Below, in pieces: positions 1-4,709 of a stretch of DNA of 4,709 nt. The notes beneath the pieces were generated by a model. The model saw only the letters and a list, made by a program, of their open reading frames with translations, did no database searches and was not told where the DNA came from. The DNA comes from a virus (lineage: Duplodnaviria > Heunggongvirae > Uroviricota > Caudoviricetes). Where the stretch lies: IMG/VR virus record IMGVR_UViG_2690316142_000012, positions 1 to 4,709 of that record, one strand, 5' to 3'. Positions within the stretch are counted from its first letter, which is position 1; every line of letters begins with the position of its first letter. The translations under genes were made by a program, and so were the position numbers.

Positions 1-30
1 TCTTAAGTCCAAACGGACAGGAGATTTAAA

Positions 31-324
31 ATGAAATTCACTTCAACCACGAATCATGTTTTCACATTCGAACGAGTAACGCTTTGCACGATTGTTCTTA
101 TTCATAAGGATACGGGACAACAGTATGTTGTCATATTTACGGATAACAATAAAATTCGTGACTATAAGACCGGAATTGTTTCTCAGTTTGGTGAACTTAA
201 GCAGAGTGATATTGATTTAATTCTTTTCTATCGGGACGAATATGAAAAATATTTTGACTCGTTAAATAATGGCGAGGAGTATTTGAGTTTTAAAGAATAT
301 ATCGGATGTATAAGGGGAAAATAA
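31..324 (+). CDS. hypothetical small protein (97 aa), no recognisable domain
   Basis: ATG at 31 preceded by AGGAG at 19..23 (7-nt spacing); uninterrupted 97-codon ORF; AT-rich codon usage typical of horizontally acquired morons; followed by further small ORFs and a terminator at 562..590. Confidence 0.6.
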   Translation: MKFTSTTNHVFTFERVTLCTIVLIHKDTGQQYVVIFTDNNKIRDYKTGIVSQFGELKQSDIDLILFYRDEYEKYFDSLNNGEEYLSFKEYIGCIRGK

Positions 325-327
325 ATT

Positions 328-387
328 ATGAAAGGTGTGTTCAGGTTGCTGGAACAACCTGAACACGTTATCGACAATCAAAACTGA
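328..387 (+). CDS. possible micro-ORF (19 aa, MKGVFRLLEQPEHVIDNQN)
   Basis: ATG at 328 lies 9 nt after AAGGGGA (312..318), 3 nt after the stop of the 97-aa gene; too short for the ORF track; coding status uncertain. Confidence 0.2.
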   Translation: MKGVFRLLEQPEHVIDNQN

Positions 388-400
388 ATGAGGTTTTTAA

Positions 401-538
401 ATGTCAACACGACAGATCGTACAGCTTGCTGACTCCCTTGTCAAAGGCTGGGAAACCAGAATTCCGGCAATGACGTGCACGGAGTGGGATCAATTCCGGT
501 GGTGGTTAAACTACCTGCAAGGGTATGAAATGTTTTAA
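401..538 (+). CDS. possible small protein (45 aa, Trp-rich: MSTRQIVQLADSLVKGWETRIPAMTCTEWDQFRWWLNYLQGYEMF)
   Basis: ATG at 401 preceded by GAGG at 390..393 (about 8-nt spacing); ORF ends at TAA 536..538, 24 nt before an intrinsic terminator hairpin; below the ORF-track size cutoff. Confidence 0.35.
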   Translation: MSTRQIVQLADSLVKGWETRIPAMTCTEWDQFRWWLNYLQGYEMF

Positions 539-561
539 ATAACCGGGATAAATTCATATAT

Positions 562-590
562 GGGGAGAGTGTCATGCTCTCCCTTTCTTA
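562..590 (+). terminator. intrinsic terminator for the plus-strand small-gene operon
   Basis: Stem GGGAGAG (563..569) / CTCTCCC (577..583) with 7-nt loop, followed by TTTCTTATT. Confidence 0.55.
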
Positions 591-608
591 TTGGGTAGCG
601 AGTTGTAT

Positions 609-657
609 TACATATTTAGCTTTACGTTGTAAAGATTTTATTGTCTTTACAGTGTGG
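609..657. repeat. bipartite palindromic element, copy 1 (CTTTAC-GTT-GTAAAG at 620..634, then CTTTACAGTGTGG at 645..657); candidate operator
   Basis: Perfect 6-bp inverted arms with 3-bp spacer; second half-element starts 16 bp after the first element ends; same architecture at copies 2 and 3; shares ATTACATA..AGCTTTAC lead-in with copy 2. Confidence 0.7.
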
Positions 658-735
658 TGCGTTTTCCGGCGGTTGCGCTGCGCTTAGGGGTATGTGGCTT
701 CGATGATCCAGGGTATTTCGACGTAATGCGTTGTA

Positions 736-1179
736 TTACGATGTATACTCTTTAATTGCTTGCAATCTCTTTTCACGTTCGTTGCTTTGTTGGGCCTTTT
801 CCAGTTGGCTGTATATGTACTCTTCATCTTTACCCGTGAGTATTGAGCCGGAGAGCAGACGATTAATAACTATACGTTTAATTTCTGGGTAATCTTTGGT
901 TTTATCGAGTATGGACAATATGTGGTCACTGCTAAGAATTATCCCACTCCATGAGTCTAAATAGCTCTTAAAAATCACAATCATAAACACACCGAAAAGC
1001 ATTATGATGATTGTTACCACATTAATGCTAAACGTTGATATAAAGGTATACGCGGCCACACCAATTATTGCTAAACAGAGACATAAATAAATGAAACCGA
1101 TTTTGTTGCGTTGCTTTTTTTCTGCACGATCATGATCATCTATGATTTCCAGTATCTTTTCTGGGATTAGTTGAGTCAT
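736..1179 (-). CDS. small membrane protein (147 aa), two predicted transmembrane helices, ~77-aa soluble C-terminal domain; function unknown
   Basis: ATG at 1177..1179 (minus) preceded by AAGGAA with ~5-nt spacing; two hydrophobic stretches (IGFIYLCLCLAIIGVAAYTFI and VVTIIIMLFGVFMIVIF) separated by a short loop; charged N- and C-termini. Confidence 0.7.
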   Translation of the reverse strand: MTQLIPEKILEIIDDHDRAEKKQRNKIGFIYLCLCLAIIGVAAYTFISTFSINVVTIIIMLFGVFMIVIFKSYLDSWSGIILSSDHILSILDKTKDYPEIKRIVINRLLSGSILTGKDEEYIYSQLEKAQQSNEREKRLQAIKEYTS

Positions 1180-1211
1180 TTTCTTTCCTTATTTGGGACA
1201 CGGAGTGTTTA

Positions 1212-1260
1212 ATTACATAGCTTTACATTGTAAATCTATGTTTGTCTTTACGATGTAAAT
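1212..1260. repeat. bipartite palindromic element, copy 2 (CTTTAC-ATT-GTAAAT at 1221..1235, CTTTAC-GAT-GTAAAT at 1246..1260); candidate operator over the membrane-gene promoter/leader
   Basis: Same 16-bp spacing between elements as copies 1 and 3; sits between the membrane-protein start codon (1179) and a candidate minus-strand promoter. Confidence 0.7.
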
Positions 1261-1287
1261 GATGAGATGTGCAGTTAAAAGTGTCAA
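1259..1287 (-). promoter_or_regulatory. candidate sigma70 promoter for the membrane-protein gene
   Basis: On the minus strand: perfect -35 TTGACA (plus 1282..1287), 17-bp spacer, -10 CATCAT (plus 1259..1264); the transcript would start inside repeat copy 2. Confidence 0.3.
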
Positions 1288-1359
1288 TCAGATATCATAT
1301 AGTAAAATACTATATTATTTTCTATGTATCACATACACAGCGATAAAACTGGATAAATG

Positions 1360-1397
1360 ACTTACACTGTAAAGATTGAGCTGTCTTTACAGTGTGG
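1360..1397. repeat. bipartite palindromic element, copy 3 (ACTTAC-ACT-GTAAAG at 1360..1374, CTTTACAGTGTGG at 1385..1397); upstream of the hicA promoter
   Basis: Second half identical to that of copy 1 (CTTTACAGTGTGG); same 16-bp spacing. Confidence 0.65.
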
Positions 1398-1423
1398 TTC
1401 ATAAGGCATACGAATGAAATAAT

Positions 1424-1452
1424 TTGCCTTTGTGTGTATGCGTGTGTATAAT
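1424..1452 (+). promoter_or_regulatory. candidate sigma70 promoter of hicAB
   Basis: -35 TTGCCT (1424..1429), 17-bp spacer, consensus -10 TATAAT (1447..1452), about 24 nt upstream of the hicA ATG; spacer is an alternating purine-pyrimidine tract (TGTGTGTATGCGTGTG). Confidence 0.5.
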
Positions 1453-1475
1453 TATCCTCAGGTTAGGGAGGACAT

Positions 1476-1658
1476 ATGAAATCTGCTGACCTGTTGAAAG
1501 AACTGATAGCTGCTGGTTGCGAGTTGAAACGGCATAAGGCAAGCAGTCACCAGATATGGTGGTCGCCAATAACAGGAAAAACTTTTCCTGTTCCTCATCC
1601 TAAAAAGGACTTGCCGCTAGGTACTGTCAGATCGATCAAAAAAATGGCGGGGATTTAA
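1476..1658 (+). CDS. hicA: HicA-family type II toxin (mRNA interferase), 60 aa
   Basis: GGGAGG RBS 4 nt upstream of ATG; protein has HicA hallmarks: small size, a His-containing segment (SSHQIW) and the characteristic C-terminal PHPKKDLPLGTVRSIKKMAG motif; immediately followed by a HicB-like gene. Confidence 0.9.
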   Translation: MKSADLLKELIAAGCELKRHKASSHQIWWSPITGKTFPVPHPKKDLPLGTVRSIKKMAGI

Positions 1659-1666
1659 TCCCCGCC
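1646..1666 (+). other. perfect 9-bp stem hairpin spanning the hicA stop codon (GGCGGGGAT-tta-ATCCCCGCC)
   Basis: Inverted repeat read directly; hicA TAA stop (1656..1658) sits in the loop; no T-run follows, so not a simple terminator; 7 nt upstream of the hicB RBS. Confidence 0.5.
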
Positions 1667-1682
1667 GACTTTGGAGGTAGCC

Positions 1683-2120
1683 ATGTTCTTTTCTGTTGGT
1701 GTCGAAACACCGAAAGATGATCATACAGCATACGGTATCACCGTTCCGGTTTTTGATTGCTTTGATTTTGGATGTGTTTCTGCTGCTGATTCTCAGGCAG
1801 AAATACCCGCAATGGCGCGTGAAGCGATATTGGCAATCGTGGAAGAGATGGTAATAAGCGGTGCTCATTCTGTTGATGATATTCATGATGAAGGGTGTTT
1901 GACTTATTCCGCCAACCCAAATTATAACCACTGTGATAGCTGGTTTGTAATTGATGTTGATTTGTCAGAAATTGAGGGCAAACAACAACGTATTAATATT
2001 TCATTGCCTGATGTATTGATTCGTCGTATTGATGGATATGTGAGAGAAAGTGGTGGCGTATACAAAGATCGTAGCCATTTTCTGGCTCAGGCGGCACGTC
2101 ATGAACTTGCATATAAATAA
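1683..2120 (+). CDS. hicB: HicB-family type II antitoxin (145 aa) with C-terminal ribbon-helix-helix DNA-binding domain
   Basis: ATG at 1683 with GGAGG (1673..1677) 5 nt upstream (ORF track extends to a TTG at 1671); N-terminal HicB-like region and C-terminal RINISLPDVLIRRIDGYV...RSHFLAQAARHEL typical of RHH (CopG-like) domains; directly downstream of hicA. Confidence 0.85.
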   Translation: MFFSVGVETPKDDHTAYGITVPVFDCFDFGCVSAADSQAEIPAMAREAILAIVEEMVISGAHSVDDIHDEGCLTYSANPNYNHCDSWFVIDVDLSEIEGKQQRINISLPDVLIRRIDGYVRESGGVYKDRSHFLAQAARHELAYK

Positions 2121-2124
2121 AACT

Positions 2125-2152
2125 ATCCCCGCGTTGTGCGGGGATTTTTTTT
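2125..2152 (+). terminator. strong intrinsic terminator after hicB, probably bidirectional
   Basis: Perfect 8-bp GC-rich stem ATCCCCGC (2125..2132) / GCGGGGAT (2138..2145), 5-nt loop, then T8 (2145..2152); on the minus strand the same hairpin is followed by AGTTTTATTTAT, so it may also end the convergent minus-strand operon. Confidence 0.8.
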
Positions 2153-2159
2153 GATAGCT

Positions 2160-2221
2160 AACCGCTCGCCGCAGTCCAGCGACCGAGCATAGCGAGCGAG
2201 TGACGAGGAAGCGGAAGATCC
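2160..2221. other. segment resembling ColE1/pMB1-type plasmid backbone sequence (origin-proximal region of pBR322/pUC)
   Basis: From memory of the pUC/pBR322 sequence (ACCGCTCGCCGCAGCCGAACGACCGAGCGCAGCGAGTCAGTGAGCGAGGAAGCGGAAGA): the window has ACCGCTCGCCGCAG..CGACCGAGC..AGCGAG..CGAGGAAGCGGAAGA in the same order; roughly 80-85 percent identity by eye, not computed. Confidence 0.45.
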
Positions 2222-2250
2222 ACCGTTGCCAGGAGAAAAGCAGGTACGCA

Positions 2251-2571
2251 CTATGCGTTCTGCCCTAGTGATGCTTTCACAAACCACGCAGCCTGAACTA
2301 TTACGCCATGAATCCAGCGCAAATCGGCATCACGATTTTCTTTTTTCATTTTTTCGCCACTTAAAGCCTTGCTTACGTGACTTTTTACCAGATTTTCGTG
2401 TAATTCTTTTGCTTCTTCAATTGTGAAACCACCAGGCAAATTTGGCGCTTCTGCTTCCAGCGATGCCAGTGCGATTTCATAAGCCCGACGCTCAATATTG
2501 TCTCGGACGTCCAGGCTGCCTATACGCTCTCTGATTTCTTTAATCAGTTCTTTGTCGGTTAAAGTGGTCAT
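2251..2571 (-). CDS. hypothetical prophage early-region protein (106 aa); N-terminal module shared with the 136-aa protein
   Basis: ATG overlaps the stop of the upstream 171-aa gene (ATGA); AAGGAA RBS 7 nt upstream; shares the motif IALASLEAEA and a 19-nt nucleotide identity with gene 3385..3795. Confidence 0.7.
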   Translation of the reverse strand: MTTLTDKELIKEIRERIGSLDVRDNIERRAYEIALASLEAEAPNLPGGFTIEEAKELHENLVKSHVSKALSGEKMKKENRDADLRWIHGVIVQAAWFVKASLGQNA

Positions 2572-3083
2572 GCTGCGTTTCCTTCTTTCTTATTAACAAT
2601 TACACCGTCATATATTTCATTAAGGTGTCCTCTTAGCTCCATGCGCCTTAATGCAGATAACATGTAATCGCATTCAACCTGCTTATTCCCAGTAAATGGC
2701 TTATCGTCAGGATTACCCCAACAGCAATTACCCCTGGGCCATCCATGTACTTTCCGTACTCTTCCGTTAACAACGTGAAGTAATCCCCAGCCGGGAGGTA
2801 AATCCTCAACTGAAATAATTTCCGGCTCACTAATAAAGAATCGCCAGTCGCCCATGCCAAGTGAGGGATTTTTACGGAAACGCTTTTTTCTATCTGCCAA
2901 CAAGTCAGCACGAGAACACTTCGCCTCTATCAGGCATGATGCTGAATTTCTGAATCCCATAGCATCTGGCTGTTCTCCGGTACTGGTTACAGCAACAAAG
3001 CGGTCATGAAAGCAAACCTTGAACCCGTTGCGCTTAAGGAACTTGTACGCAATCTGACAGAGTTCGTGGTGTGTTAACGCCAT
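2568..3083 (-). CDS. PD-(D/E)xK nuclease-like protein (171 aa), possibly MmcB-like; tentative
   Basis: Start at ATG 3081..3083 (MALTHHELCQ) preceded by GGGAAAGGAAAGTGAT; motif order E...PD(AMGF)...(L)IEAK(CS) matches the PD-(D/E)xK nuclease core; the ORF-track N-terminal extension (MGKESD) is probably not translated. Confidence 0.7.
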   Translation of the reverse strand: MALTHHELCQIAYKFLKRNGFKVCFHDRFVAVTSTGEQPDAMGFRNSASCLIEAKCSRADLLADRKKRFRKNPSLGMGDWRFFISEPEIISVEDLPPGWGLLHVVNGRVRKVHGWPRGNCCWGNPDDKPFTGNKQVECDYMLSALRRMELRGHLNEIYDGVIVNKKEGNAA

Positions 3084-3119
3084 ATCACTTTCCTTTCCCA
3101 TGTTGTCATGTGTTAGTCC

Positions 3120-3383
3120 TTATCCTGCTGTGCTTTCAACTGATGAGGGGAATAAAATCTTTTCATCAAATCCGGCATTCATATCATGGACAGCAACACA
3201 CCAATCCATCGACGAACGATTATCAAGAGCCTCCATGATTTCATCCATGCGGCGCAGGTCATACAGGTAAATGCTTTTATCGCCAATGGTGTAAAAACCA
3301 ATTTTTTTCGGTGATGGGCAGCGATCAAGAACGTCCTGTAATTCGTTCAACCATGCCCGTTCTTTTTTTGTTAAAGTTGCCAT
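3120..3383 (-). CDS. hypothetical prophage early-region protein (87 aa)
   Basis: Start at ATG 3381..3383 (MATLTKKERAW) preceded by AAAGGAGAGTGAT; the upstream gene's stop lies 1 nt before this ATG (TGA-T-ATG); the longer ORF in the track is an out-of-frame read-through of the upstream gene's 3' end. Confidence 0.7.
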   Translation of the reverse strand: MATLTKKERAWLNELQDVLDRCPSPKKIGFYTIGDKSIYLYDLRRMDEIMEALDNRSSMDWCVAVHDMNAGFDEKILFPSSVESTAG

Positions 3384-3396
3384 ATCACTCTCCTTT
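3242..3396. repeat. 155-bp exact direct repeat, copy 1 (identical to 4555..4709)
   Basis: Base-by-base identity read from the sequence; covers the RBS and first 47 codons of the 87-aa gene; left boundary is sharp (3241 T versus 4554 A). Confidence 0.95.
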
Positions 3397-3795
3397 CCCA
3401 TGAAGCATAGCGGCGCGGCAGGCGTTCCAGCCTGTAGCGTATGCAGCCGCTTTGCTGCTGCCTTCAACTGGCGCATCCTGCCAATACATTTCATCCGGCA
3501 CTACCGGCGCTGGCAAGGCTGCGTGATAGTAGAGTGGCATAGTTTTGTACAGTGGTTCGCCAGGACTTCCGTCAACCTGATTCCATTCTTCAACCCAGGC
3601 ATCAACAACCGCTTTGCTGGTTGATACATGTTCTTCTGAATCTACATTTTGTCCTGATATACAGAACATAACTGCCTCTGCTTCCAGCGATGCCAGAGCA
3701 ATTCGTGCCAGTTCCATTTGTTCGCCACGAGTAAGTCCGTTATCAAGCGGATTTTTAATGAATAATTTGATACGTTCTTTGGTTATAGCGTTCAT
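3385..3795 (-). CDS. hypothetical prophage early-region protein (136 aa); N-terminal module shared with the 106-aa protein
   Basis: Start at ATG 3793..3795 (MNAITKERIK) preceded by AAGGAGAGTGAG; the upstream 203-aa gene's stop lies 1 nt before it (TGA-G-ATG); contains ELARIALASLEAEA. Confidence 0.7.
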   Translation of the reverse strand: MNAITKERIKLFIKNPLDNGLTRGEQMELARIALASLEAEAVMFCISGQNVDSEEHVSTSKAVVDAWVEEWNQVDGSPGEPLYKTMPLYYHAALPAPVVPDEMYWQDAPVEGSSKAAAYATGWNACRAAMLHGKGE

Positions 3796-3796
3796 C

Positions 3797-4408
3797 TCAC
3801 TCTCCTTTGATGCGAATGCCAGTAGCGCGGATTGCATCGATGACTTCAGAAACTTTGTATGCCATTACCGTTTGGTAATCATCGTGAAAATCTGTTCGAT
3901 GAAGCATGCTGCTACGTTCCGGGAGCGATATTTCCCGAGCATCCAGTTCCTTAACGCGCTCCTCCAGTTCGTAGACCCTGCATTGTTCTCTATCATCAAT
4001 CAGATATAACCCAAGACATTCGCTTTCTACCCAACCGCCAAAATCATGATCGTAACGCTCACATGAAAACTCACCGTCACCGTCCTTTGTTGGAATGGTG
4101 TAACTATCTAATGGGCCACCATATGTCGGCACATTTCCCAATGTTGGATGCTCAATCCACATGAAAAATGCACGTCCGGTTATTGGGCAAATATCTGGCC
4201 GCCATTGGTTACGAACAGCCTTGGTTTCGGATAATTCTTCAGCGTGTTGTTTTACTTCCTCAAGCTCGTATCGCTTCAGGTTTGCGATATTTGATAAATT
4301 CAGCGCCAGTACAGCCAGGTCATAAACCTCTTCGGCAGTGACATCGCTGTTCAGTCCCATTTCATGGCGATATATGATTTTTTCTACTCGTTGTTTTGTG
4401 ATCGTCAT
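3797..4408 (-). CDS. hypothetical prophage early-region protein (203 aa); possibly ead/Ea22-like, unverified
   Basis: Longest ORF in the operon; preferred start ATG at 4406..4408 (MTITKQRVEK) with GGAG 11 nt upstream; ORF track extends to a TTG at 4432; ends KGE-stop within the RBS of the next gene. Confidence 0.65.
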   Translation of the reverse strand: MTITKQRVEKIIYRHEMGLNSDVTAEEVYDLAVLALNLSNIANLKRYELEEVKQHAEELSETKAVRNQWRPDICPITGRAFFMWIEHPTLGNVPTYGGPLDSYTIPTKDGDGEFSCERYDHDFGGWVESECLGLYLIDDREQCRVYELEERVKELDAREISLPERSSMLHRTDFHDDYQTVMAYKVSEVIDAIRATGIRIKGE

Positions 4409-4516
4409 TTTTCTCTTCACTCCGATATACAAGGATTACCACACCCCCTCTGCTGATTGCGCGAGCTGGATCCCCTGGTTCCATGCCGTCAATTCCGAAG
4501 GCTTCGGAAAACGCAT

Positions 4517-4696
4517 TCATTGCCTTCTGGCGTTCATCCTGCTTACGGCGTTTACATCCATGCGGCGCAGGTCATACAGGTAAATGCTTTTATCGCCAAT
4601 GGTGTAAAAACCAATTTTTTTCGGTGATGGGCAGCGATCAAGAACGTCCTGTAATTCGTTCAACCATGCCCGTTCTTTTTTTGTTAAAGTTGCCAT
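4517..4696 (-). pseudogene. truncated chimeric duplicate of the 87-aa gene (first 47 codons identical, then 12 unrelated codons and a stop; 59 aa)
   Basis: Lies in copy 2 of the 155-bp repeat; translation from ATG 4694..4696 gives MATLTKKERAWLNELQDVLDRCPSPKKIGFYTIGDKSIYLYDLRRMD then VNAVSRMNARRQ-stop; the preceding 4698..4709 encodes a KGE-stop gene end as at 3385 and 3797. Confidence 0.4.
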
Positions 4697-4709
4697 ATCA
4701 CTCTCCTTT
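4555..4709. repeat. 155-bp exact direct repeat, copy 2 (identical to 3242..3396); continues to the window edge
   Basis: Offset of exactly 1313 bp from copy 1; true extent unknown because the window ends. Confidence 0.95.

What the first reader, a model, noticed from the sequence alone, without database searches (positions are those of the whole stretch)
2160..2221. Segment resembling the origin-proximal backbone of ColE1/pMB1 plasmids
From memory of the pBR322/pUC sequence (ACCGCTCGCCGCAGCCGAACGACCGAGCGCAGCGAGTCAGTGAGCGAGGAAGCGGAAGA), the window carries the same blocks in the same order, with identical runs of 14, 9, 6 and 15 nt. In those plasmids this region lies just downstream of the replication origin, where single-strand initiation (primosome assembly) sites were mapped. 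A diverged copy in a prophage suggests either past plasmid-phage exchange or a conserved functional single-strand DNA structure. The identity estimate is by eye and the plasmid sequence is recalled, not looked up.
Basis: partly seen in the sequence, partly recalled or inferred. Interest (0 to 1): 0.55.

Follow-up and report, generated by a model that had tools for sequence, protein, structure and literature searches.

The report
Primosome assembly site in IncI2 plasmid
The segment is a real copy of a well-known plasmid DNA signal that lets the host start DNA synthesis on single-stranded DNA, but it lies in the backbone of an IncI2 conjugative resistance plasmid, not in a prophage, so it is an unannotated new member of a known kind.

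Summary
Window 2161-2219 aligns to the pMB1/pBR322 sequence with the stated identical runs of 14, 9, 6 and 15 nt. BLASTN finds more than 4,300 small ColE1-type plasmids at 84-91% identity (E 1e-8 to 1e-12).

In ColE1 the homolog lies 115-175 nt downstream of ori, on the RNA II-sense strand. That is the mapped ssiA / n'-pas primosome assembly site.

The context is not a prophage. The window is backbone of IncI2 conjugative plasmids (R721, mcr-1/CTX-M plasmids; 98-100% identity). No genuine phage record carries the element.

The same roughly 95-nt element (window 2161-2256, two conserved blocks) occurs with unrelated flanks in ColE1/pMB1/p15A, IncX1/X3/X4, F (RepFIA) and FIB-like replicons. A profile built without IncI2 members hits the window once (E 2.7e-17). 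Compensatory changes support a folded strand.

In IncI2 the element is single-copy. It sits 8 nt after the hicAB terminator, about 3.8 kb from oriT in the leading region, and about 10-13 kb from repA.

The active (+) strand is inferred to be the strand retained in the donor. It would also be the lagging-strand template for forks coming from oriV.

Verdict: an ssiA-family, probably PriA-dependent, primosome assembly site. It is a new member of a known kind, and its activity is untested.

The parts
2161..2256 (+). Whole ssiA-family element (block 1, variable spacer, block 2), as delimited by a profile of 25 non-IncI2 family members
   Evidence: nhmmer gives 54.8 bits and E 2.7e-17, the only hit in the window on either strand. 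The R721 homology break lies just after about 2256.
2162..2174 (+). 5' arm CCGCTCGCCGCAG. Positions GCTCGCCGCA are invariant across the family. CCGCT (2162-2166) is the 5' half of family stem I.
   Evidence: Alignments A2/A3; pair counts.
2175..2202 (+). Variable centre, with the mini-hairpin G2187-C2193 / C2188-G2192 (loop ATA). The segment CCGAGCATAGCGAGCGA is identical to the sop-side copy in an F-type RepFIA plasmid (p1303_109, locus L128). T2201 is C in other IncI2 plasmids.
   Evidence: The central pair covaries (GC to AT in 3 sequences), and the centre is replaced by other hairpins in L030, L113 and IncX3.
2204..2217 (+). 3' arm CGAGGAAGCGGAAG. CGAGGAAGC is invariant. AGCGG (2210-2214) is the 3' half of stem I. 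It contains GAAGCGG (2208-2214), which is also present in the phiX174 F-G intergenic region.
2236..2258 (+). Block 2 (AAGCAGGTACGCAC) with the small hairpin ACGCA-cta-TGCGT (2246-2258). It overlaps the stop codon of the 106-aa ORF on the - strand. On the - strand it scores as a weak terminator-like hairpin.
   Evidence: A conserved ...GCAC[TG][TG]ACGC motif lies 20-25 nt after block 1 in all natural family members. Terminator scan.
2125..2153 (.). Bidirectional intrinsic terminator of hicAB (9-bp G/C hairpin plus T8). The element starts 8 nt after it, so it lies outside the hicAB transcript.
   Evidence: PMC11878559 describes a canonical terminator with a U8 tract at the end of the IncI2 hicAB operon.
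1476..2120 (+). hicA (1476-1658) and hicB (1683-2120) toxin-antitoxin genes. Flanking context, transcribed towards oriT.
   Evidence: Pfam HicA_toxin 1.1e-15 and HicB_lk_antitox 1.3e-26; plasmid annotations.
2251..4432 (-). Convergent block of ea22-like / phage-shared genes of unknown function (2251-2571, 2568-3101, 3120-3383, 3385-3795, 3797-4432). Flanking context; part of the IncI2 leading region.
   Evidence: PHROG hits of unknown function; Stx phage and P7 matches; IncI2 matches.

Best explanation
Window 2161-2256 (+ strand) is a member of the ssiA family of phiX174-type primosome assembly sites (n'-pas). This is the signal mapped just downstream of the ColE1/pBR322 origin.

Proposed mechanism (inferred, not shown). 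When the + strand is exposed as single-stranded, SSB-coated DNA, it folds. The arms CCGCT and AGCGG pair, CG and CG pair next to them, and a small central hairpin forms. PriA recognises the fold and recruits PriB, DnaT, DnaC-DnaB and DnaG, which then lay primers.

In this IncI2 plasmid the + strand would be single-stranded in two situations. (i) It is the lagging-strand template of forks that leave the IncFII-type oriV next to repA and travel towards oriT. This is the same ori -> pas -> nic -> relaxase order as in ColE1. (ii) It is the strand retained in the donor while the T strand (the window's - strand) is peeled off from oriT, about 3.8 kb away.

What is shown: the homology, the family-wide conservation as a discrete module, the covarying stems, and the position and orientation in the plasmid. 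What is inferred: PriA dependence, the fork direction, which strand is transferred, and whether the IncI2 copy is still active.
For: Homology.
- BLASTN to more than 4,300 ColE1-type plasmids, E down to 3e-12.
- ColE1 alignment at 89.5% over 57 nt.
- A non-IncI2 profile hits the window once, E 2.7e-17, across both blocks.

Identity of the ColE1 homolog.
- RNAI lies at L003 645-749(-), ori at about 1195, and the homolog at 1309-1372 on the RNA II-sense strand.
- PMC3167613 states that pol I extension exposes ssiA / n'-pas, which recruits PriA for lagging-strand synthesis.

Discrete functional module. The same core occurs with unrelated upstream flanks in several replicon types:
- ColE1, pMB1 and p15A.
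- IncX1, IncX3 and IncX4, 380-730 bp upstream of pir.
- F (RepFIA), on both sides of repE.
- FIB-like replicons, between parA/sopA and rep.
- In complete E. coli genomes, 7,403 of 7,608 places are on plasmids.

Structure.
- 97.3% of cells are paired.
- Three pairs show double-sided changes. Stem I changes from CCGCT:AGCGG to GTGCT:AGCAC or GTGCT:AGCGC. The central pair changes from GC to AT.
- The covariation score is 0.142, against 0.066 +/- 0.011 in shuffles (0 of 500 reach it) and at most 0.036 in the slid controls.
- In L030, L113 and IncX3 the centre is replaced by other hairpins while the arms are kept.
- Two G-T wobbles fit the + strand only.

Strand polarity. GAAGCGG is on the + strand, as it is on the packaged phiX174 strand and on the ColE1 RNA II-sense strand.

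Context.
- The element is single-copy in a complete IncI2 plasmid.
- No primase is annotated, and no primase domain was found in the relaxase.
- RepA is of the IncFII type.
- The stb side of oriT is the leading region in R721-type plasmids (PMC3098194).
- A second plasmid lineage (L127) keeps a copy next to hicAB in the same orientation, although at a different position.
Against: - No activity assay exists for the IncI2 copy.
- It lies 10-13 kb from repA, not beside the origin as in every other family context seen here.
- IncFII-type replicons load DnaB through RepA/DnaA and do not need PriA to initiate (my knowledge of R1/R100).
- The IncI2 copy has A where 19 of 22 members have G at alignment column 47. 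This breaks one stem II pair.
- Its predicted minimum-energy fold pairs the 5' arm with the central GCGAGCG instead of forming stem I; the probability of stem I is 0.05-0.22, against 0.7-1.0 in ColE1-type members. The RepFIA (F-type) sop-side copies behave the same way.
- Folding energy is not better than shuffled sequence (z = -1.06).
- Within IncI2 the element is no more conserved than the surrounding backbone.
- The number of independent covariation events is small.
- T-strand identity and fork direction are inferred, not measured.
Confidence: 0.6

Rival explanations
1. Inactive relic. The element was acquired once by recombination with a ColE1-, F- or IncX-type plasmid, perhaps together with the hicAB module. 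It persists in the recently expanded IncI2 lineage without doing anything.
For: Its position is unusual, 10-13 kb from repA. It has a G-to-A change at a position otherwise G in 19 of 22 members and low predicted occupancy of family stem I. It is no more conserved than the IncI2 backbone around it. Chromosomal relics of the family exist among IS remnants (L133). IncI2 plasmids are so similar to each other that conservation within the group says little.
Against: All 21 family-invariant positions are intact, and both blocks plus the spacing are retained. The centre matches the sop-side copy in the RepFIA (F-type) plasmid p1303_109. The R721 versus mcr-type backbones recombine just outside the element and keep it whole. 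A polymorphism inside IncI2 (T2201C) turns a G-T into a G-C in both candidate pairings. L127 keeps a copy beside hicAB in the same orientation.
Confidence: 0.25
2. RNA-level or terminator role. The complement of the element forms the 3' untranslated tail of the leftward ea22-like operon. That tail runs from the stop codon at 2251 to the bidirectional terminator at 2125-2145. It could act as an RNA stabiliser or terminator.
For: The - strand hairpin 2258-2246 followed by a T-rich run scores as terminator-like. The whole 130-nt gap folds better than shuffles on the - strand (z = -2.36), mostly because of the hicAB terminator.
Against: The same element is conserved in replicons where it is not in any comparable 3' UTR: downstream of ColE1 ori, upstream of pir, and between par and rep genes. 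There is no Rfam hit. It lies outside the hicAB transcript.
Confidence: 0.07
3. Priming site for complementary-strand synthesis on the transferred strand in the recipient. This is the role proposed for single-strand initiation signals in leading regions.
For: The element lies in the leading region about 3.8 kb from oriT. IncI2 shows no primase gene. In IncX and F plasmids, family copies appear to lie on the strand inferred to be transferred (inference).
Against: The ssiA-sense strand is the coding strand of the leading-region genes, so it is the complement of the strand inferred to be transferred. Three lines support this: relaxase genes enter last, the stb side is the leading region, and an inverted repeat plus a nic-like GTGCCTG|TG lie on the - strand. 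Known sites of this kind are orientation-specific (my knowledge). There are no promoter-like hexamers for an Frpo-type signal.
Confidence: 0.05
4. Trace of plasmid-phage exchange inside a prophage.
For: Genes at 2251-4709 are about 95-97% identical to ea22-region genes of Stx phages and P7.
Against: Phage matches start at 2255 or later, to the right of almost the whole element (2161-2256), overlapping at most its last two bases. No genuine phage record carries the element. Window 1-3703 is contiguous IncI2 plasmid backbone at up to 99.8%.
Confidence: 0.03

Closest known systems
ColE1 / pBR322 ssiA (n'-pas on the L strand; called pas-BL or rriA in the 1980s literature, names from memory)
   Same: 85-90% identity over 57-59 nt, with both arms and GAAGCGG identical. 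A second downstream block is shared. The active-sense strand has the same polarity relative to nic and the relaxase genes, and relative to the inferred fork direction (inference).
   Different: In ColE1 it lies 115-175 nt from ori and is the entry point for DnaB, because the replicon has no initiator protein. Here it lies 10-13 kb from an IncFII-type RepA origin, after the hicAB terminator in the conjugative leading region. The centre of the element is of the F type. One stem II pair is broken, and the predicted fold prefers an alternative pairing.
Family copies in F-type RepFIA plasmids (repE/incC-sopA intergenic and ori2 side). A primosome assembly site near ori2 of mini-F was reported by Imber, Low and Ray in 1983 (recalled, not read here).
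   Same: The central segment CCGAGCATAGCGAGCGA is identical to the sop-side copy. The predicted alternative pairing CGCTCGC:GCGAGCG is the same.
   Different: The RepFIA (F-type) copies lie within a few hundred bases of repE, and there are two of them on opposite strands. The sop-side copy in this F-type plasmid lacks the GCGG needed for stem I, whereas the IncI2 copy keeps the ColE1-type 3' arm.
IncX1 / X3 / X4 copies upstream of pir
   Same: 82-88% identity with the same two-block layout.
   Different: They lie 380-730 bp upstream of the initiator gene and, by inference, on the transferred strand. The IncI2 copy is far from repA and on the retained strand.
phiX174 n' (PriA) recognition site in the F-G intergenic region
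   Same: GAAGCGG is on the packaged strand. A stem is formed by AGCGG and CCGCT. There is a GCGAAGC-type mini-hairpin comparable to the central GC-NNN-GC hairpin.
   Different: There is no alignable homology beyond these motifs, and the stem partners are in the opposite 5'-3' order. Functional equivalence is assumed from the literature on ColE1 ssiA, not tested here.
Frpo / ssi single-stranded promoters of conjugative leading regions (F, ColIb-P9)
   Same: Location in a leading region, and presumed action as folded single-stranded DNA (PMC11541004).
   Different: Those lie on the transferred strand, are about 300 nt long, mimic -35/-10 promoters and drive leading genes. This element is about 95 nt, lies on the other strand, has no promoter-like hexamers and sits between two convergent transcription units.

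Membership tests
ssiA-family phiX174-type primosome assembly site (n'-pas) | Significant sequence homology to the mapped ColE1/pBR322 site | tested here: met
   BLASTN E 1e-8 to 3e-12 to more than 4,300 ColE1-type plasmids. ColE1 at 89.5% over 57 nt. Non-IncI2 profile at 54.8 bits, E 2.7e-17.
ssiA-family phiX174-type primosome assembly site (n'-pas) | Conserved arms (GCTCGCCGCA ... CGAGGAAGC) and the GAAGCGG motif on the active-sense strand | tested here: met
   All 21 columns invariant across 22 distinct members are present in the window copy. GAAGCGG is also on the phiX174 packaged strand.
ssiA-family phiX174-type primosome assembly site (n'-pas) | Second conserved block (...GCAC[TG][TG]ACGC) 20-25 nt downstream | tested here: met
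   Window 2236-2251 aligns to it.
ssiA-family phiX174-type primosome assembly site (n'-pas) | Strand can adopt the family's consensus fold (stem I CCGCT:AGCGG, stem II, central mini-hairpin) | tested here: inconclusive
   Stem I and the mini-hairpin can form. Stem II has a C-A mismatch. The predicted probability of stem I is only 0.05-0.22 because CGCTCGC:GCGAGCG competes, as it does in the RepFIA (F-type) copies. The fold itself rests on few covariation events.
ssiA-family phiX174-type primosome assembly site (n'-pas) | Location beside a vegetative origin, on the lagging-strand template | tested here: not met
   It lies 12.8 kb from repA in pCTXM64_C0967 and 10.5 kb in pRHB42-C20_3. Its orientation is compatible with the lagging-strand template only by inference from IncFII-type unidirectional replication. 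This feature describes where known members sit rather than defining their biochemistry.
ssiA-family phiX174-type primosome assembly site (n'-pas) | Orientation-specific, rifampicin-resistant, PriA/PriB/DnaT/DnaB/DnaC/DnaG-dependent conversion of single-stranded to duplex DNA; stimulation of PriA ATPase | not testable with these tools
   Needs the M13 origin-deficient plaque or in vitro assay.
ColE1/pMB1 replicon backbone | RNAI/RNAII origin next to the segment | tested here: not met
   No RNAI hit in the window even at E of 1 or less. Flanks are unrelated to ColE1.
Prophage / phage genome | Element and both flanks found in phage records | tested here: not met
   The phage collection gives only ColE1-type or vector-like hits for the element. 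Phage matches to the window begin at 2255 or later. Both flanks match IncI2 plasmids.
Frpo-type single-stranded promoter of leading regions | On the transferred strand, with -35/-10-like hexamers in a long hairpin, upstream of a leading gene | tested here: not met
   No promoter-like site at 2121-2260 on either strand. The ssiA-sense strand is the complement of the inferred T strand. The element lies between two convergent gene ends.

The most novel reading that the evidence does not exclude
The site is kept on the non-transferred strand of the leading region for a reason. Both IncI2 and ColE1 have the order pas - nic - relaxase. When a MOBP relaxase that lacks a helicase domain nicks oriT and the T strand is peeled away, the exposed retained strand would assemble a PriA primosome at this site. 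That primosome would prime replacement-strand synthesis in the donor. PriA/DnaB loaded there might also help drive unwinding. This would give a host restart pathway a dedicated role in conjugative DNA processing.
Probability: 0.1. Interest if true: 0.65.

Novelty: new member of a known kind. Interest (0 to 1): 0.3.

Why it matters
IncI2 plasmids are the main vehicles of mcr-1 and also carry CTX-M and KPC genes. Their hicAB region has been studied closely (PMC11878559), yet I found no paper that mentions a primosome assembly signal 8 nt beyond the hicAB terminator.

Recognising it has three consequences:
- It corrects a likely mis-reading of this region as phage DNA or vector contamination.
- It shows that the ssiA element is a portable, roughly 95-nt two-block module shared by ColE1, p15A, IncX, F, FIB-like and IncI2 replicons.
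- It offers a concrete test of whether PriA-dependent priming matters for the replication, stability or donor-side transfer of a plasmid that appears to lack its own primase.

If the copy turns out to be inactive, the finding is only an annotation note.

Tried and rejected
- Gapped pattern scan of genome contigs (CGCTCGCCGCAG N25-45 GAAGCGG). The pattern was too loose. Most of the 120 loci are chance matches in GC-rich genomes. Only about 20 were true family members, several of them vector contamination. My first profile HMM was contaminated by these and had to be rebuilt.
- Rfam scan of the window at E of 1 or less. Only three sub-threshold hits, none at the element.
- Folding energy against shuffles. 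Not distinctive for either strand, so energy alone neither supports nor refutes a structure.
- Alternative central pairings seen in single-sequence minimum-energy folds (for example ColE1 A19-T30, or GAC:GTC). These were rejected because the partner columns vary without compensation.
- Literature. I found no open-access text giving the mapped limits or the published secondary structure of pas-BL/ssiA. PMC3167613 has no supplement held. The IncI2 conjugation paper PMC11873049 gives no oriT or nic details. No paper links IncI2 or R721 with a primosome assembly site.
- Comparing the IncI2 oriT with other plasmids to find a mapped nic site. Only IncI2-like, Pseudomonas, Edwardsiella and small Salmonella plasmids matched. 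The assignment of the T strand therefore rests on gene order, on PMC3098194, and on a nic-like motif that I recognise from memory of R64 and RP4.
- Prophage origin: rejected.
- Frpo-type promoter: rejected.

Full report
**1. The observation**

The finding covers window 2160-2221, which reads AACCGCTCGCCGCAGTCCAGCGACCGAGCATAGCGAGCGAGTGACGAGGAAGCGGAAGATCC. The recalled string is correct: it occurs exactly in pMB1-type loci fetched later (L040, L116, L120).

- About 530 records are at 95% identity or more.
- About 4,300 are at 80-90%. The rows listed are mostly plasmids of 1.5-8 kb, and 3,488 of the 5,000 records are typed mobilizable.
- These weaker matches cover window 2161-2220 at 84-91%, with E 1e-8 to 3e-12.

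**2. What the ColE1 counterpart is**

In ColE1 (NC_001371.1, L003) Rfam places RNAI at 645-749 on the - strand. RNA II therefore runs on the + strand, and the RNA/DNA switch is near 1195. The homolog is at 1309-1372 on the RNA II-sense strand, 115-175 nt downstream.

The displaced strand has the sequence of the nascent leading strand, so the active strand is the one carrying GAAGCGG. The phiX174 F-G intergenic region carries the classical PriA recognition site (my knowledge). It has GAAGCGG on the packaged strand, a stem formed by AGCGG and CCGCT, and a GCGAAGC mini-hairpin.

**3. Where the window comes from**

It is not a prophage.
- Window 2100-2300 is 100% identical to R721 and to many other IncI2 plasmids of about 57-78 kb from Escherichia, Shigella, Salmonella and Klebsiella.
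- The whole window matches IncI2 plasmids at 98.3-99.9% over 70-81% of its length. The shortfall comes from a 158-nt internal direct repeat and from variable ea22-like genes.
- Phage records match only from 2255 rightwards.
- For the element itself, the phage collection returns only small ColE1-like or vector-like records.
- The genes at 2251-4432 belong to PHROG families of unknown function.

**4. Position in the plasmid**

In pCTXM64_C0967 (L002 and L134) the layout is as follows:

| Feature | Coordinates |
|---|---|
| repA | 496-1524 (+) |
| Run of + strand genes | 5097-14329, ending with hicA and hicB |
| The element | about 14370-14465 |
| Genes on the - strand, including the stb operon | 14460-17913 |
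| oriT gap | 17913-18282 |
| mobC | 18282-18623 (+) |
| Relaxase (1401 aa) | 18620-22825 (+) |

In the window, hicB ends at 2120. The canonical hicAB terminator is at 2125-2145 plus T8 (described in PMC11878559). The element starts 8 nt later and ends across the stop codon (2251-2253) of the leftward 106-aa ORF.

The element is single-copy in the complete plasmid. No primase is annotated, and the relaxase shows only Relaxase and LPD7 domains. RepA belongs to the IncFII_repA family.

**5. Which strand is transferred (inference)**

- Relaxase operons enter last (established for MOBP plasmids).
- PMC3098194 places the stb operon 'at the leading region' for MOBP6/IncI2 plasmids and uses R721 as its IncI2/MOBP6 example in the synteny figure.
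- On the - strand of the oriT gap there is an inverted repeat, CGATTGTAACA...TGTGTACAATCG. It is followed 12 nt later by GTGCCTG|TG, which resembles the R64/RP4 nic motif ATCCTG|Y as I recall it.
- The genes at 5097-14329 are oriented so that the - strand is their template, the pattern reported for leading regions (PMC11541004).

The T strand is therefore the window's - strand. The ssiA-sense + strand is retained in the donor. This argues against a role in priming the incoming strand in recipients.

By the same rule, ColE1 has the same order: ori, ssiA (+), nic, mob genes (+).

If IncI2 replicates unidirectionally away from repA, as R1 and R100 do (my knowledge), the + strand is also the lagging-strand template.

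**6. The element is a portable module**

Alignment of copies from different replicons shows an invariant 5' arm (GCTCGCCGCA), a variable centre and an invariant 3' arm (CGAGGAAGC). A second block (...GCAC[TG][TG]ACGC) follows 20-25 nt later. Upstream flanks are unrelated.

| Context | Position |
|---|---|
| ColE1, pMB1, p15A and other RNAI replicons | downstream of ori |
| IncX1, IncX3, IncX4 | 380-730 bp upstream of pir |
| F-type RepFIA | between repE/incC and sopA; a second copy on the other strand about 300 bp upstream of repE |
| FIB-like replicons | between parA/sopA and rep |
| Chromosome | a relic among IS fragments |

In 5,426 complete E. coli genomes there are 7,608 places, 7,403 of them on plasmids.

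A profile built from 25 non-IncI2 members hits the window once: + strand 2161-2256, E 2.7e-17. The IncI2 copy is a mosaic. Its centre, CCGAGCATAGCGAGCGA, equals the sop-side copy in an F-type RepFIA plasmid, and its 3' arm is of the ColE1 type.

**7. Structure**

A consensus fold pairs CCGCT with AGCGG (stem I), pairs CGC with GCG (stem II), and forms a two-pair central mini-hairpin. On 22 distinct sequences:
- 97.3% of cells are paired.
- Three pairs have double-sided changes.
- The covariation score is 0.142, against 0.066 +/- 0.011 in shuffles (0 of 500 reach it) and at most 0.036 when partners are slid.
- Stem I becomes GTGCT:AGCAC in the RepFIA ori-side copies and GTGCT:AGCGC in L132.
- The central pair becomes AT in three sequences.

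IncX3 and the RepFIA ori-side copies have GGGC-GAA-GCCC in the centre. L030 and L113 keep both arms around unrelated hairpins.

The independent events are few, so this is supportive rather than conclusive.

The IncI2 copy departs in two ways. It has A2203 where 19 of 22 members have G, which breaks one stem II pair. Its predicted minimum-energy fold pairs CGCTCGC (2163-2169) with GCGAGCG (2192-2198) instead of forming stem I. The RepFIA (F-type) sop-side copies do the same. Folding energy is not better than shuffled sequence.

**8. Interpretation**

Homology to the ssiA family is secure. The most likely function is the family's function: PriA-dependent primosome assembly on the + strand whenever that strand is single-stranded.

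The location is atypical. The element lies far from oriV, in the leading region, on the retained strand. Activity of this copy is therefore uncertain, and I give 0.6 to 'functional ssiA-type site' and 0.25 to 'inactive relic'.

One further lineage is relevant. L127 has an IncX4 replicon with an IncI2-like transfer backbone. It keeps one copy next to hicAB in the same orientation, but upstream of hicA, and a second copy upstream of its rep gene. This hints that the hicAB-side position is not accidental.

The most novel reading still allowed is a donor-side role: priming replacement-strand synthesis, or loading a helicase. I give it a probability of about 0.1.

**9. Novelty**

The kind of element has been known since about 1980, and copies in small plasmids are routinely annotated by similarity (for example pColZ, PMC6668396). 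I found no paper that notes a copy in IncI2 plasmids. That includes the detailed study of the adjacent hicAB operon.

It is a new member of a known kind, of modest interest.

Noticed in passing
window 608-655, 1209-1256, 1348-1395: Three copies of a 48-nt repeat (60-75% identity) that contain palindromes of the form CTTTACnnTGTAAAG. Copy 3 forms a 19-nt inverted repeat just upstream of the predicted hicA promoter (1424-1452). Copy 2 lies upstream of the 147-aa membrane-like ORF on the - strand. They may be operators for a shared regulator.
   Followed up: no
window 3239-3396 and 4552-4709: A 158-nt direct repeat at 99% identity covers the start of an 87-aa ORF and its upstream region. The window ends exactly inside the second copy. 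This suggests a contig break or recombination between paralogous ea22-like cassettes, and it explains why no single plasmid record covers more than 81% of the window.
   Followed up: partly
window 1646-1666: A G/C-rich hairpin GGCGGGGAT-TTA-ATCCCCGCC lies between hicA and hicB. It corresponds to the 'noncanonical intrinsic terminator' reported for IncI2 hicAB in PMC11878559. The scan flags it on the - strand only, because the + strand T tract is just 3 nt.
   Followed up: partly
L128 (p1303_109) 4001-4051 (+) and about 5380-5443 (-); L129 3001-3065 (+) and about 4700-4764 (-): F-type RepFIA regions and a related replicon carry two copies of the family on opposite strands, flanking the initiator gene. 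The ori-side copies have outer stem GTGCT:AGCAC, fully compensatory relative to CCGCT:AGCGG, and centre GGGC-GAA-GCCC.
   Followed up: partly
L127 (NZ_CP056167.1) 41426-41483 (-) and 45275-45333 (+): This plasmid has an IncX4 replicon but an IncI2-like relaxase, oriT, stb and hicAB backbone. It holds two copies of the element. One is upstream of hicA, of the IncX1 sequence type, in the same orientation relative to oriT as in IncI2. The other is about 730 bp upstream of the rep gene. Here hicB is only 29 nt from the stb operon, so the downstream position used in IncI2 is empty.
   Followed up: partly
L030 1568-1621 (Geobacteraceae MAG contig); L113 2504-2555 (Phytobacter contig): These family members keep both arms, and L030 also keeps block 2. 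Their central 25-27 nt are replaced by unrelated hairpins (ATGCGC...GCGCAT and GTTGA...TCAAC). This suggests the arms plus 'any hairpin' are what is conserved. The Geobacteraceae assignment may be a binning artefact.
   Followed up: no
L133 (E. coli strain 131 chromosome, NZ_CP093011.1) 4001-4058: A chromosomal copy of the element lies among IS1/IS3 fragments next to papI/papX. It shares the ACGAGG variant (A at alignment column 47) with IncI2. In all, 205 of 7,608 places in complete E. coli genomes are chromosomal.
   Followed up: no
window 2447-2476 and 3674-3703: The 106-aa and 136-aa ORFs share a 30-nt stretch at 90% identity that encodes the same ALASLEAEA motif, and both hit PHROG 5117/660/60. 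These ea22-like genes are modular, with a common N-terminal module.
   Followed up: no
L039, L040, L061, L076, L116, L119, L120 (genome contigs): Contigs labelled as Lacinutrix, Runella, Moritella, Paracoccus, Bacillus, Actinoallomurus and Pollutibacter carry exact pMB1/pUC-type sequence around the element. This is very likely cloning-vector contamination in those assemblies.
   Followed up: no
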